The notes below the pieces were generated by a model. It searched no databases and was not told where the DNA came from. It saw nothing but the letters and a program-made list of their open reading frames with translations. From Pseudomonadota bacterium (lineage in GTDB: Bacteria; Pseudomonadota; Gammaproteobacteria; Steroidobacterales; JBCCMA01), in contig JBCCMA010000003.1 of NCBI GenBank assembly GCA_039026595.1, forward strand, positions 1 to 62,716: a stretch of 62,716 nucleotides of DNA. The letters are read 5' to 3'. Of the stretch, positions 1 through 8,855 are shown in pieces (positions within the stretch are counted from its first letter, which is position 1; each line of letters starts with the position of its first letter). The position numbers were made by a program, and so were the translations under genes.

Positions 1-1017
1 CAGGGGCGCGCGTTCTGGGTGCTCGACGATCTTTGGGTGCTGCGGCAAGCAGCAAACGCCCCGGCCGACAACGGACTGCACCTGTACACGCCACCCCGCT
101 GGTCGATGGGCAAACCCGGTGGACGCGGACGTACATTTGAAGGCAAGAACCCCTCGCCGCACGTGCCGCTTTATTACGTCATCCGCGACGAAGTGGACGA
201 CGACGCCACGCTGAAAATCGACATCCTCGATGCGGGCGGCGCGGTGGTCCGTACGATGGCTAGCCGCGAAGGCGATCAGGAGCGCTGCGAGAAGGGCAAC
301 GAAGAGCCGCGCCAACCGATCAAGCACAAGTACGCGCCGACAAAGAAGGGCTTCAACAAATGGCACTGGAACATGAAATCCGAGGACGTGCCGTGCATCG
401 AGAACATCCTGATCCACGCTGGTTTTAACGGTCCGAGCGTGGCGCCCGGAGACTATACCGCTCGGCTGACCCTGGGTGACTTGACCAGCGAGGTATCGTT
501 TCGTGTGGCCCAAGACCCGCGCTCGTCGGCAAGCCCGGACGAGATCAGCGATTGGGCGAACACACTAGCAACGGTCAAAGCGATGCTGAGCGATGCGCTT
601 CAGGCCCTCGATCAGGCGCGTCAGGCACGCGATCAAATTACCGCGTTAATAAGCGAGCACGACGACACGCAATTGCGTGCACTTGCCGAAAACGCAGTAT
701 CCGGCATCGACGTCTGGGAGAAGAAAATCACACAGCTCAAACATGAGACCTACGAGGATGAAGACGCGTGGGCCACGATGTTTGACGGTCAGGTGCGTTA
801 CCTGATGGAAACCATCGATCGATCCGGGGCACCCATTACAGGCGGGATGCGAACGAGGCTGGCCGATCTCACGCAACAATGGGTTGAACTGCAGCAAGAG
901 CTGCGCAACATCACCGCCAATTATATTGTGCCGATCAACGACTGGGCGTATACGCGGCAGGAACCGTACGTCGTGCACCCCGGCGGACATACGGTGACCG
1001 CAGACGGCGGTACGTAA
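1..1017 (+). CDS. C-terminal part (5' truncated by the window) of a VPS10/BNR-repeat glycosyl hydrolase-like protein
   Basis: Frame is open from base 1 (QGRAFWVLDDL). This is followed by an FlgD-like Ig segment (KIDILDAGGAVVRT...GFNKWHWN...PGDYTARLT...VAQDPR) and a helical tail, as in this family. Confidence 0.65.
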   Translation, partial: QGRAFWVLDDLWVLRQAANAPADNGLHLYTPPRWSMGKPGGRGRTFEGKNPSPHVPLYYVIRDEVDDDATLKIDILDAGGAVVRTMASREGDQERCEKGNEEPRQPIKHKYAPTKKGFNKWHWNMKSEDVPCIENILIHAGFNGPSVAPGDYTARLTLGDLTSEVSFRVAQDPRSSASPDEISDWANTLATVKAMLSDALQALDQARQARDQITALISEHDDTQLRALAENAVSGIDVWEKKITQLKHETYEDEDAWATMFDGQVRYLMETIDRSGAPITGGMRTRLADLTQQWVELQQELRNITANYIVPINDWAYTRQEPYVVHPGGHTVTADGGT

Positions 1018-1045: not shown

Positions 1046-2266
1046 TCAGCCGTAGGCGCGCCCCAAAACCGATAGCGCCCGCTGCACCAATTCCGAGTCA
1101 GACTCGTTGGCGAGCGCCAACGCGGGCTCCGCCCCATTGAACGCGAGAAGCACCGGCGCCCCGGTAAACTTATGGACATTGAACCACTGGTTGAATTGCC
1201 CCTGTGCCAATCCGGTATCTGGCGTGAGTATCCACGACGGCTCGGAGTCCCAGAACGGTTCTTCGAATGACAGGTAGAGTTTATCGAGGGTGCCAAAACC
1301 CAGGCGGGTTATTGCCTCGCGCATCTTGCGCGGCAGCGGAGGATCAAACGCGGGTCGATTCCGTTTCAACACGCCGAGCGGGACGGTAACGATAACCGCG
1401 TCGAAGCGCATCGCATCATTGCCCGGTGCATCGATGAGGACACCCGACGCGTCGTAGATGACACGTCGCACAGGCGTATCCAGCCGAACCTCATAGTCGC
1501 CTTCGAGCGCTGAGAAAATCTGATCGTAGCCGTTGGGGAACAGAACGTCGGGCCCGTCGTAGTCATCCGCGAACAGATAGGACCACACGCTGATCTGCTT
1601 CAGGCTGGCGCCTGCAGTGTGCTGGATTGAAGTGACCTCATCCATCCAGCCGGGAAGCGCGCCGTCATCAAGCGTCCGACCTTCTGCGCGCGCCCGCCAA
1701 GAGGGAGGGGTCTCCCGACGTGACAGCGACAGCGAATCGGCCATGGCCGTGAGCGGGTTGTCGTCGATCCCGTGAATCCAGCTGGCTCCAAGATCGAGCG
1801 CCGGACCCAACTCACGGCTGGTTTGGATTCGACCACCCAGTCGATCGCGCGCCTCGAATACGGTCACGGACACGCCCTCTTCGGCCAGAGCATGCGCGGC
1901 ACTGAGACCGCTCATGCCGGCGCCGACCACCGCGACGCGCTGATGTCCGCGCTCCAGAACCTTGCCCGCGGCCAATCGTCCGGATTCCTCGGCGGCGTGC
2001 ACTGTGCTGCTGCGTTTTGGGTTAGCGGCTTCACCCGCAAGATAGACGCAGTCAAGAACAGGTCGGGTCAGTACGCGATGGTGTTTACGGCGCGCGCCCT
2101 TTGCGATGAAAGAATAGGATCCACCGGCGAGCGGATCGCGGCTCCAGTTGGTGCGCAGGTAGCCAGAAAGAGGTGGCAAGGTGGGGTTCTTACCAAGCGC
2201 GACGGGCCCAAGCGCCGACGCGCACACCCAAAGACCACTTTTGCTCAAAAAACGCCGGCGATTCAT
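1046..2266 (-). CDS. Tat-exported flavin monoamine/polyamine oxidase family protein, circularly permuted
   Basis: Twin-Arg MNRRRFL. Motifs VVGAGMSGLSAA...FEARDRLGGRI, LGASWIHG and FDAVIVTVPLGVLK...FDPPLP...DKLYLSF are present. The TNWSRDP..GGSYS and LAGEA..TVHAA motifs lie N-terminal of the Rossmann motif. Confidence 0.85.
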   Translation of the reverse strand: MNRRRFLSKSGLWVCASALGPVALGKNPTLPPLSGYLRTNWSRDPLAGGSYSFIAKGARRKHHRVLTRPVLDCVYLAGEAANPKRSSTVHAAEESGRLAAGKVLERGHQRVAVVGAGMSGLSAAHALAEEGVSVTVFEARDRLGGRIQTSRELGPALDLGASWIHGIDDNPLTAMADSLSLSRRETPPSWRARAEGRTLDDGALPGWMDEVTSIQHTAGASLKQISVWSYLFADDYDGPDVLFPNGYDQIFSALEGDYEVRLDTPVRRVIYDASGVLIDAPGNDAMRFDAVIVTVPLGVLKRNRPAFDPPLPRKMREAITRLGFGTLDKLYLSFEEPFWDSEPSWILTPDTGLAQGQFNQWFNVHKFTGAPVLLAFNGAEPALALANESDSELVQRALSVLGRAYG

Positions 2267-2400: not shown

Positions 2401-2886
2401 TTAGGCGAACTCGGGTGGCGAGTAGGGGAGCGACGAGTGATGCAGGATGATCCGCAACGTGCCGTCCGCGTCTTTTTTGTAGCCCCAGCTTTTGTCCACT
2501 TTGGTGACCTGACCGTCTTTGTCAGTCATGGTGACCCAGCCCATCCACATGGCCACATCGCCTTCAATGAAGCTCGCAGACGTCTCCGAAAAAACCTCGC
2601 GCCAGCCTTTCAGAGCAAAGCCACCGTCGAGTGGAAAGTCCGAATCATGGGCGACAAAGTACGACAGTGCGCCCTTCTTTGTAGGACGAAATGTTTTCTC
2701 TCCGCTTGCCAGCGTGGGCTTGAACATGACGGGGCCGAGGTTGTAGCCGTAGGCGGCATCCAGAACGTCGTTGGCAATGCGGCGTGCGCCGTCGATGCCG
2801 TCCGATTCATACGCCTTTGCGATGGCAACCAGAGCGTCGCCCCAGGCAACGCGCGCCGCGTCCAGGTCAGCTTCGGTAATGGACAT
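2401..2886 (-). CDS. COG4337-type (NTF2/SnoaL-like fold) protein, putative iota-class carbonic anhydrase
   Basis: Motifs MFKPTLA, FRPTKKGALSYFV, DGGFALKGW, KVDKSWGY and C-terminal LRIILHHSSLPY; AAGGAG RBS; no signal peptide. Confidence 0.7.
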   Translation of the reverse strand: MSITEADLDAARVAWGDALVAIAKAYESDGIDGARRIANDVLDAAYGYNLGPVMFKPTLASGEKTFRPTKKGALSYFVAHDSDFPLDGGFALKGWREVFSETSASFIEGDVAMWMGWVTMTDKDGQVTKVDKSWGYKKDADGTLRIILHHSSLPYSPPEFA

Positions 2887-3065: not shown

Positions 3066-3722
3066 TTATCCGCCCTTTTCCTCGTGCGGCAGCACCTGCG
3101 TCTCCGCTTCGGCCGCGGCCTGCCACTGCTGCATGTCCGGATCAGCGTGTATGAAATCGACAAACCGCTGCGCCGCCGGCGTCAGCTCCACACCATAGGT
3201 CAGGAAACGTGACGCCACCGGCGCATACATGGCATCGGCGATGGTAAAGCCGCCTACCAGACCGCCATCCAGATGGCCAAACCTCTCTGCACACTCGTCC
3301 CAGATGGCAAGAACCCGCGCGACATCACCGACGGCTCGTTCGCTCGGCGCGAGTAACCGACCTCGAGCACGGCAGTTCATGGGCATCTCGCTACGCAGCG
3401 CCGGGAAGCCCGAGTGCATTTCCGCGCTGATGCAACGTGCAAAGGCGCGACGCGTACCGTCATCGGGCCAAAGGCCCGCATGCGGCATCCGGTCTGCAAT
3501 CACATCGGCGATTGCCAGCGAGTCCCAGATCACTTCATCGCCCAGGTGCAGCGCCGGCACCGTTCGCGATGGCGACAGATTGCCGATACGGGCGTCGAAC
3601 TCCGGCGTGTCGAGGTCGAGCTTGAGTTCGTCGAATTCCAGACCGGCCTTGCGTGCAACAAGCCATGCGCGCAACGACCACGACGAGTAGTTCTTGCTGC
3701 CGATAACCAACGTGTTCTTCAT
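3066..3722 (-). CDS. Glutathione S-transferase family protein
   Basis: IGSKNYSSWSLRAWL, SPSRTVPAL, WDSLAI, SAEMHSGF, FTIADAMYAPV; ATGA overlap with the trpA stop. Confidence 0.9.
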   Translation of the reverse strand: MKNTLVIGSKNYSSWSLRAWLVARKAGLEFDELKLDLDTPEFDARIGNLSPSRTVPALHLGDEVIWDSLAIADVIADRMPHAGLWPDDGTRRAFARCISAEMHSGFPALRSEMPMNCRARGRLLAPSERAVGDVARVLAIWDECAERFGHLDGGLVGGFTIADAMYAPVASRFLTYGVELTPAAQRFVDFIHADPDMQQWQAAAEAETQVLPHEEKGG

Positions 3723-4540
3723 GCCGCGCCCGCCTGAATGTGAAGCGACCGAACAAACGACGCCACATCCTCACCCTGTTCCGCCAGTTCAATCAGTCGC
3801 GATCCGACCACGACACCATCGGCGTGCGCTGCAAGGGCCGCCACCTGGTCGGGGCCTCGAATGCCGAAGCCCGCACAAACGGGCCGCTCGCTGACCGCAC
3901 GCACCCGCGCGAGATAGTCCGCGACACGTTCAAGATCCGGTGCGGCATCGCCGGTGGGTGCACCGGCTTTTGCGCCTCCGGTAATCCCGGTGACGGTCAC
4001 CGCGTAAACAAAGCCACCGCTGGCCGCACACAGCGTGGCCAGCCGATCCGCCGGCGTCACCGGTGTCACCAACTGAACCAACGCGAGGCCCTGCGCTTCG
4101 AGTGGCGTGCGCATGGGCGCGCTCTCTTCGTACGGCAGATCCGGCACGATAAAACCCGATACCCCGCTCTCGCGCGCGCGACGCGCGAGCGTCTCGTAGC
4201 CCATCGCCAGCATCGGGTTCAGATAGCCCATTAGCAACAGCGGGCATGCCCAGTTTCTGTCTGCCAGTGTGCGCAGAATCCAGTCCAGCGAGACGCCGTT
4301 GGCCAACGCCGTCTGGCTGGCCCGTTGAATGGTCATGCCGTCAGCCATCGGGTCGGTGAACGGCACGCCGATTTCGACCACGTCCGCCGCTTCGGTTAAC
4401 GCGCCCAGATTTGCAACAAACGATGCCTTGTCGGGGAAGCCCGCAGTCATGAACGCGACAACGGCCGGGCGACCCTCGTCATTCGCCCGTCGAATCGCCG
4501 CTTCGATGGCGTCGGCGCCCACATCGACCACTGCGCTCAT
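3719..4540 (-). CDS. trpA: Tryptophan synthase alpha chain
   Basis: EIGVPFTDPMADG, IVPDLP, GFVYAVTVTGITG, GFGI, ADGVVVGS. Confidence 0.97.
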   Translation of the reverse strand: MSAVVDVGADAIEAAIRRANDEGRPAVVAFMTAGFPDKASFVANLGALTEAADVVEIGVPFTDPMADGMTIQRASQTALANGVSLDWILRTLADRNWACPLLLMGYLNPMLAMGYETLARRARESGVSGFIVPDLPYEESAPMRTPLEAQGLALVQLVTPVTPADRLATLCAASGGFVYAVTVTGITGGAKAGAPTGDAAPDLERVADYLARVRAVSERPVCAGFGIRGPDQVAALAAHADGVVVGSRLIELAEQGEDVASFVRSLHIQAGAA

Positions 4541-5766
4541 GCCCGTGGCTCCAGCGAGCGCAGCGTGGGCAAATCCTTGTCACCCCGTCCCGAGAAACCG
4601 ATCAGAATTTGGGCGCCGGGATGCGCACGCGCGTAGTTGCGCGCGCCGGCCATGGCGTGCGCGGTTTCGATGGCCGGCAGGATGCCTTCGGTGCGACAGC
4701 ATTCGTCGAGCGCGTCGAGCGCTTCATCGTCGCGAATCGATACGTAGCGTGCGCGCCCGGTCGCCTGCAGTAACGCGTGTTCCGGACCAACACCCGGATA
4801 ATCCAGACCCGCCGACACCGAGTGGGTTTCCTGAATCTGGCCGTCCTGGTCGTGCAAGAGCATGGACATGGCACCGTGCAGGACACCGGGTTTGCCGGAG
4901 ACCAGCGACGCCGAATTATCACCGAGCCCCTCACCGCGCCCACCGGCTTCGACGCCGAGGAGGTCGGTGTCTGTATCGCCGATCAACGGGTGGAACAGCC
5001 CGATCGCATTGGAGCCCCCACCCACACACGCAATCGCGACATCGGCGCGGACCCCCGCGCGCGCCATCAGCTGATCGCGCGCCTCTTCGCCGATAACCGA
5101 CTGAAGCTGACACACCAGCCGCGGGTAGGGGTGCGGACCCACCGCCGAACCCAGCAGATAGTAGGTTTCCATCGGCGATGCGACCCAGTCCCGCAGTGCC
5201 TCGTCAATGGCCGAACGCAGCGTGCGATCGCCGTTCTCCACGGCCACAACCTCAGCGCCGAGCCGACGCATCCGATCTACATTGGGCGCCTGGCGTTCCA
5301 CATCGATGGCGCCCATGTACACACGACACGGCAACCCGAGCCGCGCGCAGGCCGCCGCGCTGGCCACACCGTGCTGGCCCGCGCCCGTCTCGGCGATGAT
5401 GCGCGTGACGCCAAGGTGTTTTGCGAGCAGCGCCTGCCCCACCGCGTTGTTGATCTTGTGTGCCCCGGTGTGTGCGAGGTCTTCGCGCTTGAGCCACACA
5501 TGGGCACCCCACGCCTCGCTCAGCCGCGTGGCATAGGTGAGCGGCGTCGGACGGCCCACCCACGTGGCAAGCTCGTCCTTGAACGCAGTCTGAAACGCGT
5601 CGGTGTCGAGCACATCGCGCATACCGGTCTCGAGGCGTTCCAGCGCCGGCACCAGCGTCTCGGGAACGTATCTTCCACCGAACGGGCCATAACGACCGCG
5701 CGCATCCGGATACTCGCCGGCCACCAGCGACGCGTGCATCGCGTCGGTTTCAGGTTGCGTGAGCAT
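4537..5766 (-). CDS. trpB: Tryptophan synthase beta chain
   Basis: GPFGGRYVPE, KREDLAHTGAHKINN (PLP lysine), AETGAGQHG, SAGLDYPGVGPEH, SGRGDKD. Confidence 0.98.
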   Translation of the reverse strand: MLTQPETDAMHASLVAGEYPDARGRYGPFGGRYVPETLVPALERLETGMRDVLDTDAFQTAFKDELATWVGRPTPLTYATRLSEAWGAHVWLKREDLAHTGAHKINNAVGQALLAKHLGVTRIIAETGAGQHGVASAAACARLGLPCRVYMGAIDVERQAPNVDRMRRLGAEVVAVENGDRTLRSAIDEALRDWVASPMETYYLLGSAVGPHPYPRLVCQLQSVIGEEARDQLMARAGVRADVAIACVGGGSNAIGLFHPLIGDTDTDLLGVEAGGRGEGLGDNSASLVSGKPGVLHGAMSMLLHDQDGQIQETHSVSAGLDYPGVGPEHALLQATGRARYVSIRDDEALDALDECCRTEGILPAIETAHAMAGARNYARAHPGAQILIGFSGRGDKDLPTLRSLEPRA

Positions 5767-5776
5767 GCTTTTGTCT

Positions 5777-5806
5777 CCTCATGCGATCAGGCCTCATGCG
5801 ATCAGG
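5777..5806. repeat. Exact 15-bp tandem duplication (CCTCATGCGATCAGG)x2 across the trpF stop and trpB RBS
   Basis: Read directly at 5777-5791 and 5792-5806. Confidence 0.9.
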
Positions 5807-6383
5807 CAGCAGCTCGCGCCGCCTGCACAAAATCGAAAATAAGATTCGGGTCTTTCCGCCCCCGTGTACGTTCAACACCACTGCTGACGTCCACACCGAA
5901 CGGCCGTACAGCGGTGATGCCCGCGGTCACGTTTTCAGGGTTCAAACCGCCCGCCAGAATTAGTTCGGTGCGCAAGGACAACGCCGCGGCAACCGACCAG
6001 TCGCAGGTATCACCGGTCCCGCTGTCCGCGCCTTCGAACAACAAGCGCGGCGGCGGATCACTCGGCGCATCATCACGGTAGACCGGCAGCGCCGTAACGC
6101 GCCCAGCGAGCATCACGCCGTGCAGATCAGGCGCGTCGGACTGCAGCCAGTCCGGTTGGATGCACGCGCAGACCTCCGTGATCCAAGCCATCCGCGGATG
6201 CCGCATCACCGCCACAATCTCAGCGCGACCCCGCGCGTGGTTAACCAGCGGAGCCGCCTCATTGAGCGTCACCTCGCGCGGCGACGGCGCAAAGACAAAG
6301 CCCACCGCGTCTGCGCCCGCCTCAATCGCCGCGTCGATGGACTCGGTGTTGCGCAAACCGCAGATCTTGATCCACAGCGCCAT
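5802..6383 (-). CDS. trpF: Phosphoribosylanthranilate isomerase
   Basis: WIKICGL, GADAVGFVF..SPR, ILAGGLNPENV, PFGVDVSSGVE; TGATG coupling to trpC. Confidence 0.95.
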   Translation of the reverse strand: MALWIKICGLRNTESIDAAIEAGADAVGFVFAPSPREVTLNEAAPLVNHARGRAEIVAVMRHPRMAWITEVCACIQPDWLQSDAPDLHGVMLAGRVTALPVYRDDAPSDPPPRLLFEGADSGTGDTCDWSVAAALSLRTELILAGGLNPENVTAGITAVRPFGVDVSSGVERTRGRKDPNLIFDFVQAARAAA

Positions 6384-7231
6384 CAACCGTGCCCCGGCTC
6401 GGGGTAAATACCGCTGGATCGCGCGATGGTCAGCATCGATTCCAGAAACGCCGTGGGCAGTCTGGCACGCATCAACGCCGTGCCGACCAAGGCCAGGCGA
6501 TAGCCCAGGCCCACAATCCGGCAGGCGTCCTGCGCATTCGCTACACCGCTTTCGGCCACCGACAAGAGACGGTGATCGAACAGCGGGGCGTGCGTGGCAA
6601 GGCGTTCCGGGTCGACATCGAGCGTGGTGAGATCCCGTGTATTGATCCCCACCAGCGGCCGCCGCTCGCGCTTGAGGGCCAGGTCCTGGCTCCGCGCGAG
6701 ATCGTCGGCGTCGAACGCTTCAATCAAAATGAACAAACCGAGTGCGTCCGCCACGTCGAGCATCTCGGACAACTGCGCGTCACTCAACATACGCGTGATC
6801 AACAGGGCGCCGCCCGCGCCGGCCGCCCGCGCCTCATAGAGCTGATACGGGTCCACCAGAAAGTCCTTGCGCATGACCGGGACCCCCTGCGACTCCACCG
6901 CCGCAGACGCCACCGACACGTGCGTCAGGTCGCCGCCAAAGCGCGACGGCTCGGTCAAAACCGAAATCGCGCAGGCGCCGCCGCGTGCGTAGGCCAGCGC
7001 GCGTTTCGCGATGGCATGGGGAACATTGTCATCATCCGCAAGTGCGCCTTCGGCCGGCGAATGACGTTTGATCTCAGCAATGATATCGAATCGATCAAAG
7101 CCCGCACGCAGCGCCGGTGGTGGTGGCATATCGGCCGTACGACTCTCCAGTTCGCTCAAGGGACGCGCGCCGCGCGCCTCGGCGCACCGCGCTTCGCTCG
7201 AACGTTGCATGCTGGCCAGAAAATCACTCAT
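6383..7231 (-). CDS. trpC: Indole-3-glycerol phosphate synthase
   Basis: IIAEIKRHSPAEG, AISVLTEPSRFGG, PVMRKDFLVDPYQ, VGINTRDL, VAESGV. Confidence 0.96.
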   Translation of the reverse strand: MSDFLASMQRSSEARCAEARGARPLSELESRTADMPPPPALRAGFDRFDIIAEIKRHSPAEGALADDDNVPHAIAKRALAYARGGACAISVLTEPSRFGGDLTHVSVASAAVESQGVPVMRKDFLVDPYQLYEARAAGAGGALLITRMLSDAQLSEMLDVADALGLFILIEAFDADDLARSQDLALKRERRPLVGINTRDLTTLDVDPERLATHAPLFDHRLLSVAESGVANAQDACRIVGLGYRLALVGTALMRARLPTAFLESMLTIARSSGIYPEPGHG

Positions 7232-8277
7232 CGACCGGAGACCGGCTGGCGTTCCTGAGCCGCGAGCGTGTCCAGCACCTGGGTCGCACGCTGATCGTGG
7301 ATTGCGTCACGCGCCATGCTGACTGCCGCCCGACGTGTGGTCGCCGCGCCGCAAACCTCAAGTGCAAGCGACGCACCGAGCACCAACGCGTCGAAGTGGG
7401 CATTCTCGACACGACCGCGCAGGACATCGCGCAGGGCGTCGGCGTTGTCGTTGGCATCCCCGCCCGCCAGCGCCTCCGGCGTGCAGCGCGCAAATCCGTC
7501 ATCACGCGGATCGCGTCGCTCGCTGATCACCTGGCCGGGTCGCACGTCGAACACATCGTACGCGCCGACCGGCGTGGCCTCGTCCCAGCCCGGCTCGCCG
7601 TGAATCACAAACGCCCGCTCAATGCGCATACCGCTCAGCGCTTCGGCCATCAATCTGGCGACCGGACGACTGAACGCGCCGATCACGGCAAACGGTGGCT
7701 CGGCCGGATTGGTCAGCGGACCGAGCACGTTGAATACCGTCCGGATGCCCATACCCTGACGCACCGGCGCCACCGCCTTCATCGCCGGGTGGTAAAACGG
7801 CGCAAACAAAAACGTAAAGCCAACCTGTTGCAACGCGCGAGCGGTGGCGGCCTCATCCATCGGCATCGGCAGCCCCAGATTCTCGAGCACGTCCGCGCTG
7901 CCGCTCCGGCTTGAGACCGACCGGTTACCGTGTTTGACCACCGGCACCCCGCACGCTGCGGTCAGAAGGGCACTGCCCGTGGACAGATTGAGGCTGCCCG
8001 ATCCGTCACCCCCGGTGCCGACAATGTCGATGGCTTTTTGCTCGGTCACAAGCGACGGGCGACGCGCCAGAGCGCGCATGGCGTTGGCAAACCCGCGGAT
8101 CTCTTCGGCGGTCTCGCCTTTGGCACGCAGCGCCGTCAGCACGGCAGCGGAGAGGACAGGCGATACCTCTTCATCGGTCAGTGCACGCAGCACGTCAGAG
8201 GCCTGCGACTCGGACAGGTTCTGGCCGGCCAGCACGTGTTCAAGCGCTTGACGCAACAACGCGGTCGATTCGCTCAT
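7228..8277 (-). CDS. trpD: Anthranilate phosphoribosyltransferase
   Basis: DIVGTGGDG, KHGNRSVSSRSGSADVLE, RTVFNVLGPLTNP. Confidence 0.97.
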   Translation of the reverse strand: MSESTALLRQALEHVLAGQNLSESQASDVLRALTDEEVSPVLSAAVLTALRAKGETAEEIRGFANAMRALARRPSLVTEQKAIDIVGTGGDGSGSLNLSTGSALLTAACGVPVVKHGNRSVSSRSGSADVLENLGLPMPMDEAATARALQQVGFTFLFAPFYHPAMKAVAPVRQGMGIRTVFNVLGPLTNPAEPPFAVIGAFSRPVARLMAEALSGMRIERAFVIHGEPGWDEATPVGAYDVFDVRPGQVISERRDPRDDGFARCTPEALAGGDANDNADALRDVLRGRVENAHFDALVLGASLALEVCGAATTRRAAVSMARDAIHDQRATQVLDTLAAQERQPVSGR

Positions 8278-8855
8278 GGCTGAGAAACCTGAAGGAAGTT
8301 GTTGAGCAGTGTATTGCCCTCCGGCGTCAAAACGCTTTCGGGATGAAACTGCACACCCTCAACGCGGTGCTCACGATGGCGCACGCCCATAATTTCGCCG
8401 CGTGCTGTTCGAGAGGTAACGGTCAATACATCGGGCACGTACGGGGGATCGGCAATCAACGAGTGATAGCGCCCGATCTCCATCGGACTGTTGATGCCGT
8501 CAAAAACGCCCTTCCCGTCATGGTCGATCATGGACGTCTTGCCGTGCATCTGTCGCTCGGCGCGCACGATGCTCCCACCGAACGCTTCTATGATCGATTG
8601 GTGGCCAAGACACACGCCGAGTATCGGCACCCGCCCGGTAAAGGCCTGCACCGCCGCCACGCTGATACCCGCGGCACCCGGTTCTCCCGGACCCGGAGAA
8701 ATCACCAGATGCGAGATGTCCAGCGCCAGCGCGTCTTCAACCGAGATCTTGTCGTGGCGATACACCGGCACGTCGGCGCCCAGTGCCCGGAACGCCTGCA
8801 CCAGGTTGTAGGTGAAAGAGTCGTAATTGTCGATCAGAAGTACGCGCGCGCTCAC
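8274..8855 (-). CDS. trpG: Anthranilate synthase component II (glutamine amidotransferase)
   Basis: LLIDNYDSFTYNL, SPGPG, LGVCLGHQ, RYHSL, QFHPES. Confidence 0.96.
   Translation of the reverse strand: MSARVLLIDNYDSFTYNLVQAFRALGADVPVYRHDKISVEDALALDISHLVISPGPGEPGAAGISVAAVQAFTGRVPILGVCLGHQSIIEAFGGSIVRAERQMHGKTSMIDHDGKGVFDGINSPMEIGRYHSLIADPPYVPDVLTVTSRTARGEIMGVRHREHRVEGVQFHPESVLTPEGNTLLNNFLQVSQP

What the first reader, a model, noticed from the sequence alone, without database searches (positions are those of the whole stretch)
1046..2266. Natural circular permutation of a flavin amine oxidase, exported by Tat
Seen: after the twin-Arg signal the protein begins with YLRTNWSRDPLAGGSYS...VYLAGEA...TVHAAEESGRLAA, and only then has the GxGxxG/EARDRLGGR Rossmann motif. 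It ends at ...LVQRALSVLGRAYG. Established: in MAO/PAO/LSD1 enzymes the GxGxxG motif is N-terminal and the W..DP..GSYS and FAGE..TVHGA segments close the chain. The middle helical substrate-binding region also looks much shorter than usual. Inference: a permuted, trimmed periplasmic amine oxidase that may have an open active site and a new substrate range.
Basis: partly seen in the sequence, partly recalled or inferred. Interest (0 to 1): 0.7.

Follow-up and report, generated by a model that had tools for sequence, protein, structure and literature searches.

The report
Circularly permuted, lid-trimmed amine oxidase
This bacterial gene encodes a flavin amine oxidase whose usual last 75 residues come first and whose middle is about 45 residues shorter than in normal-order relatives; hundreds of natural relatives share the rearranged order, and the enzyme is likely exported and likely oxidises polyamine-type amines, which nobody has tested.

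Summary
Confirmed. The ORF at 1046-2266 (minus strand, 406 aa) hits Pfam PF01593 in the order 375-443, 1-68, 178-366. It is no misassembly: one contig spans it, 119 of 119 aligned relatives share the order, and permuted genes occur in five named phyla. The AlphaFold model is one confident fold (pLDDT 92; 18). Its residues 104-406 match LSD1 278-736; a normal-order sister matches 278-831. The nearest normal-order kin are twin-arginine bacterial proteins that include Synechocystis polyamine oxidase. The six active-site residues shared by mammalian spermine and acetylpolyamine oxidases are present. Trimming is a separate event: the middle is 39 residues here, 78-92 in normal sisters, and full-length in 22 of 47 permuted clusters; two predicted helices are lost. 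Single origin is unresolved. There are no conserved neighbours. Substrate, export and an open site are untested. My paper searches found no description. This scan found the permutation before on other DNA, at least eight times. Verdict: new variant of a known enzyme kind.

The parts
1046..2266 (-). Whole gene, 406 aa, circularly permuted flavin amine oxidase (P0001)
2192..2266 (-). Predicted Tat signal peptide, residues 1-25 (twin Arg at residues 3-5, hydrophobic stretch; cleavage site inferred)
   Evidence: pLDDT under 50 for residues 1-23; motif in 103 of 111 leaders
1952..2179 (-). Moved block, residues 30-105: the normally C-terminal segment with S50, Y51, E79, S87, T88, H90 and the final FAD-domain helix
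   Evidence: PF01593 375-443; predicted helix 89-105
1940..1951 (-). New junction, residues 106-109, joining the old C-terminus to the old N-terminus
   Evidence: helix ends at 105 and strand starts at 110; gap between block boundaries is 2-4 residues in 120 of 120 family members
1709..1939 (-). Rossmann dinucleotide-binding start (G115, G117, G120, E138), GG motif, W163 and H165; residues 110-186
1592..1708 (-). Trimmed middle of the substrate-binding domain, residues 187-225 (39 aa against 78-92 in normal-order sisters); one main helix 207-218 left; P205, W207, Q215, H216
1049..1591 (-). Rest of the core, residues 226-406, with K329; ends on the helix that in normal enzymes precedes the moved block

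Best explanation
The gene encodes a naturally circularly permuted flavin amine oxidase of the polyamine oxidase/LSD1 branch, with a shortened substrate-binding domain, which likely folds around non-covalent FAD, is likely exported by Tat, and likely oxidises polyamines or their N-acetyl/N-alkyl forms outside the cytoplasm. Shown: the chain order, the shortening, the conserved family and its purifying selection. Predicted: the moved block takes its normal place in the fold. The old ends are joined by about four residues, and the new ends fall at the loop between the last substrate-domain helix and the next strand. Inferred from the known mechanism of the family: the amine C-N bond is oxidised by FAD next to W163, H165, Y51 and T88, with K329 at flavin N5; O2 would reoxidise the flavin to give H2O2; the imine would hydrolyse to an aldehyde and a shorter amine that the cell would take up. 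History, inferred: a normal-order twin-arginine ancestor had its last block moved behind the leader, and two helices were lost in a separate, probably later step. The gene is a patchy stand-alone gene, likely spread sideways.
For: Order. Family: 119 of 119 aligned relatives, 118 of 120 hits of a Streptomyces relative, 46 permuted against 28 normal ORFs in 80 GTDB loci, 47 of the best 150 clusters at 50% identity. Fold: pLDDT 92.2, pTM 0.89; Z 25.6 over 294 residues to LSD1 278-736 and Z 24.4 to maize PAO 5-378, against Z 51.8 over 419 residues to LSD1 278-831 for the normal sister. Site: PMC3517346 names Trp62, His64, Tyr430, Ser473, Thr474 and Lys315 as conserved in acetylpolyamine oxidases and shared with spermine oxidases. 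The matching W163, H165, Y51, S87, T88, K329 are kept in 119, 119, 118, 110, 109 and 119 of 119 relatives. The signature H-Q-L-K-S-Y-T is one change from the H-E-L-K-S-Y-T of Clade IV bacterial PAOs in PMC7576179 Table 1. Synechocystis PAO is 61% identical to a normal sister and aligns to P0001 in two reversed pieces. dN/dS is 0.08-0.31 in 5 of 5 close pairs. TatC is present.
Against: No member has been assayed. No polyamine transport or catabolism gene is a conserved neighbour. The same His/Tyr/Thr/Lys set is widespread in the branch, so it marks kinship, not substrate. The conserved Glu of the site is Gln here (105 of 119), and the helices that line the tunnel in SMOX/PAOX are partly gone. 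This copy departs from the family at conserved columns (E93, found in 0 of 119 others; S86, S226, P187, P188), so it may be weakened. The moved block of the closest pair gave dN/dS 1.9 on very few changes. Export rests on a motif. Some relatives are broken (L029, L037, L051).
Confidence: 0.6

Rival explanations
1. Same architecture, but loss of the two helices opens the site for a bulky or tethered non-standard substrate, such as peptide-bound or free N-methyl-lysine, alkaloid-like amines or long N-methylated polyamines, and the enzyme works as an LSD1-like oxidative demethylase outside the cell.
For: The best sequence and fold matches among solved structures are LSD1 and LSD2. T88 sits at the place of the second cage aromatic, as in LSD1. 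The middle is 39 residues against 78-92. Invariant residues new to the trimmed clade (W207, W361, N363, N377) point to a remodelled site.
Against: H165 and S87 match SMOX/PAOX, not LSD1. Normal sisters also match LSD1 best, yet include Synechocystis PAO. No cavity was measured.
Confidence: 0.2
2. It is an amine dehydrogenase rather than an oxidase and passes electrons to a periplasmic carrier instead of O2.
For: Gln at the maize Glu170 position is also found in 20 of 35 AtPAO5-like enzymes, and AtPAO5 is more active as a dehydrogenase (PMC7576179). The predicted location is periplasmic.
Against: K329 is invariant. No cytochrome c or other carrier family recurs among 208 neighbouring ORFs of 69 permuted loci. 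The Gln link is a single-position resemblance.
Confidence: 0.13
3. The family is active, but this copy is decaying or inactive.
For: There are unusual residues at conserved columns. None of 40 related genomes has the gene. Broken copies exist elsewhere.
Against: The frame is intact, all 42 invariant columns are kept, and dN/dS against L021 is about 0.28 (a rough value at this distance).
Confidence: 0.06
4. The order is an assembly chimera or a one-off scramble.
For: The only sequencing run that holds this DNA may be its source.
Against: One contig spans the gene with no joints. The same order is in hundreds of other proteins, including named cultured strains.
Confidence: 0.01

Closest known systems
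Synechocystis PCC 6803 polyamine oxidase (SynPAO, WP_011153630.1; L106:1345-2721) and Clade IV bacterial PAO-like proteins of PMC7576179
   Same: 30% identity over the core and 32% over the moved block; twin-arginine leader; site signature nearly the same; lies among the normal-order sisters. L106 is identified as SynPAO by flanking accession numbers.
   Different: Normal chain order; full-length middle; Glu where P0001 has Q215; Gln where P0001 has H165; a Cys in the leader that may be a lipid anchor.
Mammalian spermine oxidase SMOX (7oxl) and N1-acetylpolyamine oxidase PAOX (5lae)
   Same: Best solved matches for the Rossmann start of P0001 (SMOX) and for the moved block of relative L021; the six shared site residues; Z 23.1 to 5lae.
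   Different: Normal order, intracellular, three full helices around the tunnel.
LSD1/LSD2 amine oxidase domain
   Same: Best whole-sequence and fold match (E 5e-41; Z 25.6, rmsd 1.8, 294 residues); Lys, Tyr and Thr of the site.
   Different: Normal order; extra SWIRM and Tower parts; no His at the H165 position; nuclear peptide demethylase.
Maize polyamine oxidase (1b37)
   Same: Z 24.4 over 296 residues, chain 5-378; Lys300 equivalent; exported.
   Different: Glu62 and Tyr439 of its site are His and Thr here; normal order.
Monoamine oxidases A/B
   Same: Same fold; the moved block hits MAO-B 383-451.
   Different: P0001 has Ser, not the flavin-linking Cys, and Thr, not the second cage Tyr; weaker matches throughout.

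Membership tests
Flavin amine oxidoreductase family PF01593 | Score above the Pfam cut-off | tested here: met
   216.8 bits against 19.8
Flavin amine oxidoreductase family PF01593 | Rossmann GxGxxG, acidic residue, GG motif and C-terminal GE/H-x-A FAD motifs all present | tested here: met
   G115, G117, G120, E138, G144-G145, G78-E79, H90 invariant or nearly so
Flavin amine oxidoreductase family PF01593 | Normal chain order with the Rossmann motif first | tested here: not met
   order 375-443, 1-68, 178-366; this defines the variant
Flavin amine oxidoreductase family PF01593 | Amine oxidase fold | tested here: met
   predicted model, Z 22-26 for residues 104-406; the place of residues 30-103 rests on sequence matches and model confidence, as the aligners are sequential
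Polyamine oxidases (SMOX/PAOX/Fms1/Clade IV) | Trp, His, Lys, Tyr, Ser, Thr site set | tested here: met
Polyamine oxidases (SMOX/PAOX/Fms1/Clade IV) | Glu at the maize Glu170 position (usual, not universal) | tested here: not met
   Q215 aligns with the SynPAO Glu; Gln also occurs in AtPAO5-like and green algal enzymes; the link to maize numbering is inferred
Polyamine oxidases (SMOX/PAOX/Fms1/Clade IV) | Three helices around the substrate tunnel | tested here: not met
   one main helix (207-218) in the model against three (132-152, 160-169, 178-193) in the normal sister
Polyamine oxidases (SMOX/PAOX/Fms1/Clade IV) | Oxidises polyamines at a secondary amine with H2O2 release | not testable with these tools
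   needs an assay; filed as PAO-like, not as a PAO
Monoamine oxidase A/B | Cys for covalent FAD and two cage tyrosines | tested here: not met
   S50 and T88
LSD1/LSD2 demethylases | SWIRM domain | tested here: not met
   no such hit among 16 Pfam families; the 406 residues are accounted for
Tat substrates | Twin-arginine motif before a hydrophobic stretch, and a Tat translocase in the genome | tested here: met
   (motif count, no predictor)
Tat substrates | tatC-dependent export | not testable with these tools
   needs cell fractionation
Natural circular permutants | All blocks present once, in rotated order, conserved in independent genomes | tested here: met
   no protein with two copies of the moved block among those scored
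Natural circular permutants | Single origin or a duplicated intermediate | tested here: inconclusive
   one clade at 89/94, not recovered; AU p 0.27

The most novel reading that the evidence does not exclude
Permutation and loss of two lid helices made a minimal (about 377-residue), exported, open-cleft flavin amine oxidase that acts on bulky amines no known PAO takes, such as long N-methylated algal polyamines or peptide-bound methyl-lysine, and the same rotation arose more than once at the same loop.
Probability: 0.15. Interest if true: 0.8.

Novelty: new variant of a known kind. Interest (0 to 1): 0.5.

Why it matters
The MAO/PAO/LSD1 family is much studied as drug targets and biocatalysts, and my searches found no natural circular permutant described. 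Nature offers a graded series: normal order, permuted with a full middle, permuted with 65-72 residues, permuted with about 40. That series lets one test separately what moving the ends and what removing the lid helices do to folding, O2 reactivity and substrate range. It names a tolerated cut site for engineering. It also points to an unstudied group of exported bacterial PAO-like enzymes that may matter for amine turnover in water and soil. If the chemistry proves to be ordinary polyamine oxidation, it is an evolutionary curiosity with engineering value.

Tried and rejected
Misassembly: rejected. Read-through or a second copy of the moved block after the stop: none; another stop follows and the converging gene ends 28 bases away. 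Duplicated intermediate: of 120 longer hits, 117 are in normal order, 3 unclear, 0 with the moved block first (weak evidence by the tool's own note). Three tandem multi-copy proteins among 150 representatives are in normal order and look like insect or other arthropod oxidases by my reading, unlabelled. Single origin: supported; not recovered once 41 more permuted clusters were added (5 changes, and 10 on the core alone), nor in a set chosen to include the outliers (9 changes, unsettled bootstrap), nor in a quick tree with SynPAO (2 changes); not rejected by AU. Conserved neighbours: none in 48 permuted and 28 normal loci or in 208 ORFs from 69 permuted loci; a GNAT gene lies next to 2 of the 69. 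GNAT fusion: seen as an Atlas cluster; not found in the permuted ORFs. Foreign base composition: none (gene GC 0.62, window 0.61). NCBIfam: no family above its cut-off among the best 25 of 94 shown. Plasmids: no record covering 80% of the protein. No RNA holder listed. No model coordinates were available, so no cavity or distance was measured. The SynPAO paper (PMID 28869871) is not held; I saw only its title.

Full report
Observation. The finding is a minus-strand ORF at 1046-2266 of 406 residues. It converges on a gene that ends at 1017 and lies downstream of a carbonic-anhydrase-like gene, a glutathione transferase and a trp operon (the trp labels are my reading of the translations). Pfam PF01593 matches in three stretches. 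Residues 36-104 match profile 375-443, residues 118-186 match 1-68, and residues 222-406 match 178-366. Residues 30-106 alone hit the C-terminal ends of 7rt0, LSD2, spermine oxidase and MAO-B. The chain is therefore a rotation of the normal order behind a leader peptide.

It is real. One contig of 2,561 bases at even depth spans the gene without joints (possibly the source run). A protein search gave 2,418 hits among 7,998 scored candidates and listed 120. I aligned 119 of them, leaving out the window's own entry; identity is 48-56%. With three segment profiles, 120 of 120 aligned proteins, 118 of 120 hits of a Streptomyces relative (2 incomplete) and 46 ORFs from 80 GTDB loci are permuted; 28 ORFs are in normal order and 9 are fragments. 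Record titles place permuted genes in Pseudomonadota, Cyanobacteriota, Verrucomicrobiota, Myxococcota and Actinomycetota. Of the best 150 clusters at 50% identity, 47 are permuted, 98 normal and 5 other. Of the amine oxidase ORFs in 80 metagenome loci, 29 start with the moved block and 50 are complete and normal. The gene is patchy. None of 40 relatives of this genome, four of them in the same genus, has it. It was found in 10 of 401 genomes of the phylum of G041 and 2 of 401 of the class of G042, centres included, with only four candidates scored per genome. dN/dS is 0.08-0.31 in five of five close pairs; the moved block of the closest pair gave 1.9 on very few changes.

Structure. AlphaFold2 gives mean pLDDT 92.2 and pTM 0.89, low only in the leader. 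Residues 104-406 align with LSD1 278-736 (Z 25.6, rmsd 1.8, 294 residues) and maize PAO 5-378. As a control, a normal-order sister from Marinomonas aligns in one run with LSD1 278-831 (Z 51.8, 419 residues). The difference of 125 residues equals the moved block plus the lost middle. The aligners are sequential, so the place of residues 30-103 in the fold rests on sequence matches and model confidence. The old C-terminal helix (89-105) runs into the first Rossmann strand (110-114). Against Synechocystis PAO, P0001 111-406 matches 26-366 and P0001 30-103 matches 369-442, so almost nothing is lost at the cut.

Trimming. Between fixed boundaries the middle is 39 residues in P0001, 37-47 in the 120 aligned proteins, 62-73 in the 118 relatives of the Streptomyces protein, and 78-92 in 28 normal sisters. 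The normal sister has three predicted helices there (132-152, 160-169, 178-193); P0001 keeps one main helix (207-218). In SMOX and PAOX three such helices surround the catalytic tunnel (PMC9355956, section 8); matching them to mine is inference. Among the 47 permuted clusters, 22 have a full middle (74-91), 7 an intermediate one and 18 a short one, two of these aberrant. No normal-order cluster has under 74. So permutation does not need trimming, and trimming most likely came second. P205 and W207 are conserved in the trimmed clade, which suggests remodelling, not decay.

Ancestry. The nearest normal-order proteins are bacterial, and 20 of 26 scorable ones carry a twin-arginine motif, so export likely predates the rotation. 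Synechocystis PAO belongs among them. The gene at L106 lies between accessions WP_011153629.1 and WP_011153631.1, SynPAO is listed as WP_011153630.1, and it is 61% identical to L059. A 60-row tree gave the permuted proteins as one branch (89/94). Wider sets did not, and the AU test did not reject one clade (p 0.27). One origin is favoured by the shared cut site but is not shown. No duplicated bacterial intermediate was seen.

Chemistry. All FAD motifs are kept. Ser at position 50 implies non-covalent FAD (PMC7576179 Table 1). PMC3517346 lists Trp62, His64, Tyr430, Ser473, Thr474 and Lys315 as the residues conserved in acetylpolyamine oxidases and shared with spermine oxidases. Their equivalents W163, H165, Y51, S87, T88 and K329 are kept in 119, 119, 118, 110, 109 and 119 of 119 relatives (alignments; one search used relative L021). 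Three come from the moved block, so the site is built from both sides of the cut. The Glu of the helix is Gln (Q215). I therefore favour oxidation of polyamines or their N-substituted forms (0.6 overall), over a bulky-substrate demethylase (0.2), a dehydrogenase (0.13) or an inactive copy (0.06). Against: no assay exists, neighbours give no clue, and this copy has odd residues at conserved columns, E93 above all. A lead in favour: the Atlas lists an Actinomycetota cluster of 78 members in which a GNAT acetyltransferase is fused to an oxidase aligning with residues 30-406. That would resemble the mammalian acetylate-then-oxidise route (recalled). I did not find such a fusion in my loci.

Export. 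The leader motif is in 103 of 111 scorable leaders against 83 of 1,323 control windows; a lipobox-like pattern is in 2 of 111, against 78 of 104 in the set of Streptomyces relatives (loose patterns). TatC is in the genome. The trimmed clade is thus likely soluble in the periplasm, and the other likely lipid-anchored. In the permuted form the anchor would hang from the substrate-binding domain and not from the FAD domain, a possible reason for keeping the rotation (speculation).

Literature. Five searches for a description found none: 4 papers; 19 papers, 18 listed; 0; 0; 122 papers with two of five terms; none of the 30 listed holds 'circular permut'. I saw these as listings only. PMC7576179 has no occurrence of 'permut' or 'rearrang'; I read parts 1, 2 and 4 of 7, passages and five supplement rows. 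I read passages and section 8 of PMC9355956, and passages of PMC3517346, PMC6341606 and PMC6632040. The SynPAO paper was seen by title only. Most subscription journals are not in the library. Databases name these proteins generically. Earlier notes of this scan report the same rotation in at least eight other genomes and a GNAT fusion; they are unchecked AI notes and are not counted as support.

Verdict. It is a new variant of a known kind: a conserved natural circular permutant of the PAO/LSD1 fold, here in its most trimmed common form. Interest 0.5.

Noticed in passing
window 2401-2886 (-): 161-aa protein matching the metal-independent carbonic anhydrase model NF047901 over positions 50-204 of 205, below the cut-off (205.5 against 350 bits); it lacks the N-terminal part. 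It lies directly upstream of the oxidase on the same strand, but is not a conserved neighbour.
   Followed up: partly
window 3066-10234 (-): A glutathione transferase directly follows what reads as a complete trp operon (labels from my reading).
   Followed up: no
window 1-1017 (+): C-terminal 338 aa of a gene cut by the window edge, with no Pfam or NCBIfam hit; it converges on the oxidase with a 28-base gap.
   Followed up: no
ESM Atlas, structure row 7: Actinomycetota cluster (78 members, 592 aa) with a GNAT acetyltransferase fused to an amine oxidase that aligns with residues 30-406, so probably permuted.
   Followed up: partly
L029:4173-6741, L037:5959-7124, L051:6136-7091, L180:3875-5326: Permuted genes in pieces; L029 is split by about 1.2 kb of other sequence.
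   Followed up: no
L139:2775-5790: A permuted gene converges on a second, more distant PF01593 gene in normal order.
   Followed up: no
L178, L183, L194, L206: Normal-order sisters of 555-571 aa with 136-153 extra N-terminal residues that have no Pfam hit; may be early starts or an unknown domain.
   Followed up: partly
P0124, P0507, P0427: Normal-order sisters with long C-terminal extensions (repeated extracellular-looking domains), which fits an exported ancestry.
   Followed up: no
P0370, P0461, P0504: Tandem two- and three-copy amine oxidases in normal order; in two of them the old C-terminus and the next N-terminus are under ten residues apart.
   Followed up: partly
alignment A1, leader columns 18-25: The trimmed clade keeps an F-x-P-W pattern late in the signal peptide (Pro in 112 of 119, Trp in 71); the window's copy has only the Pro, one column over.
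   Followed up: no
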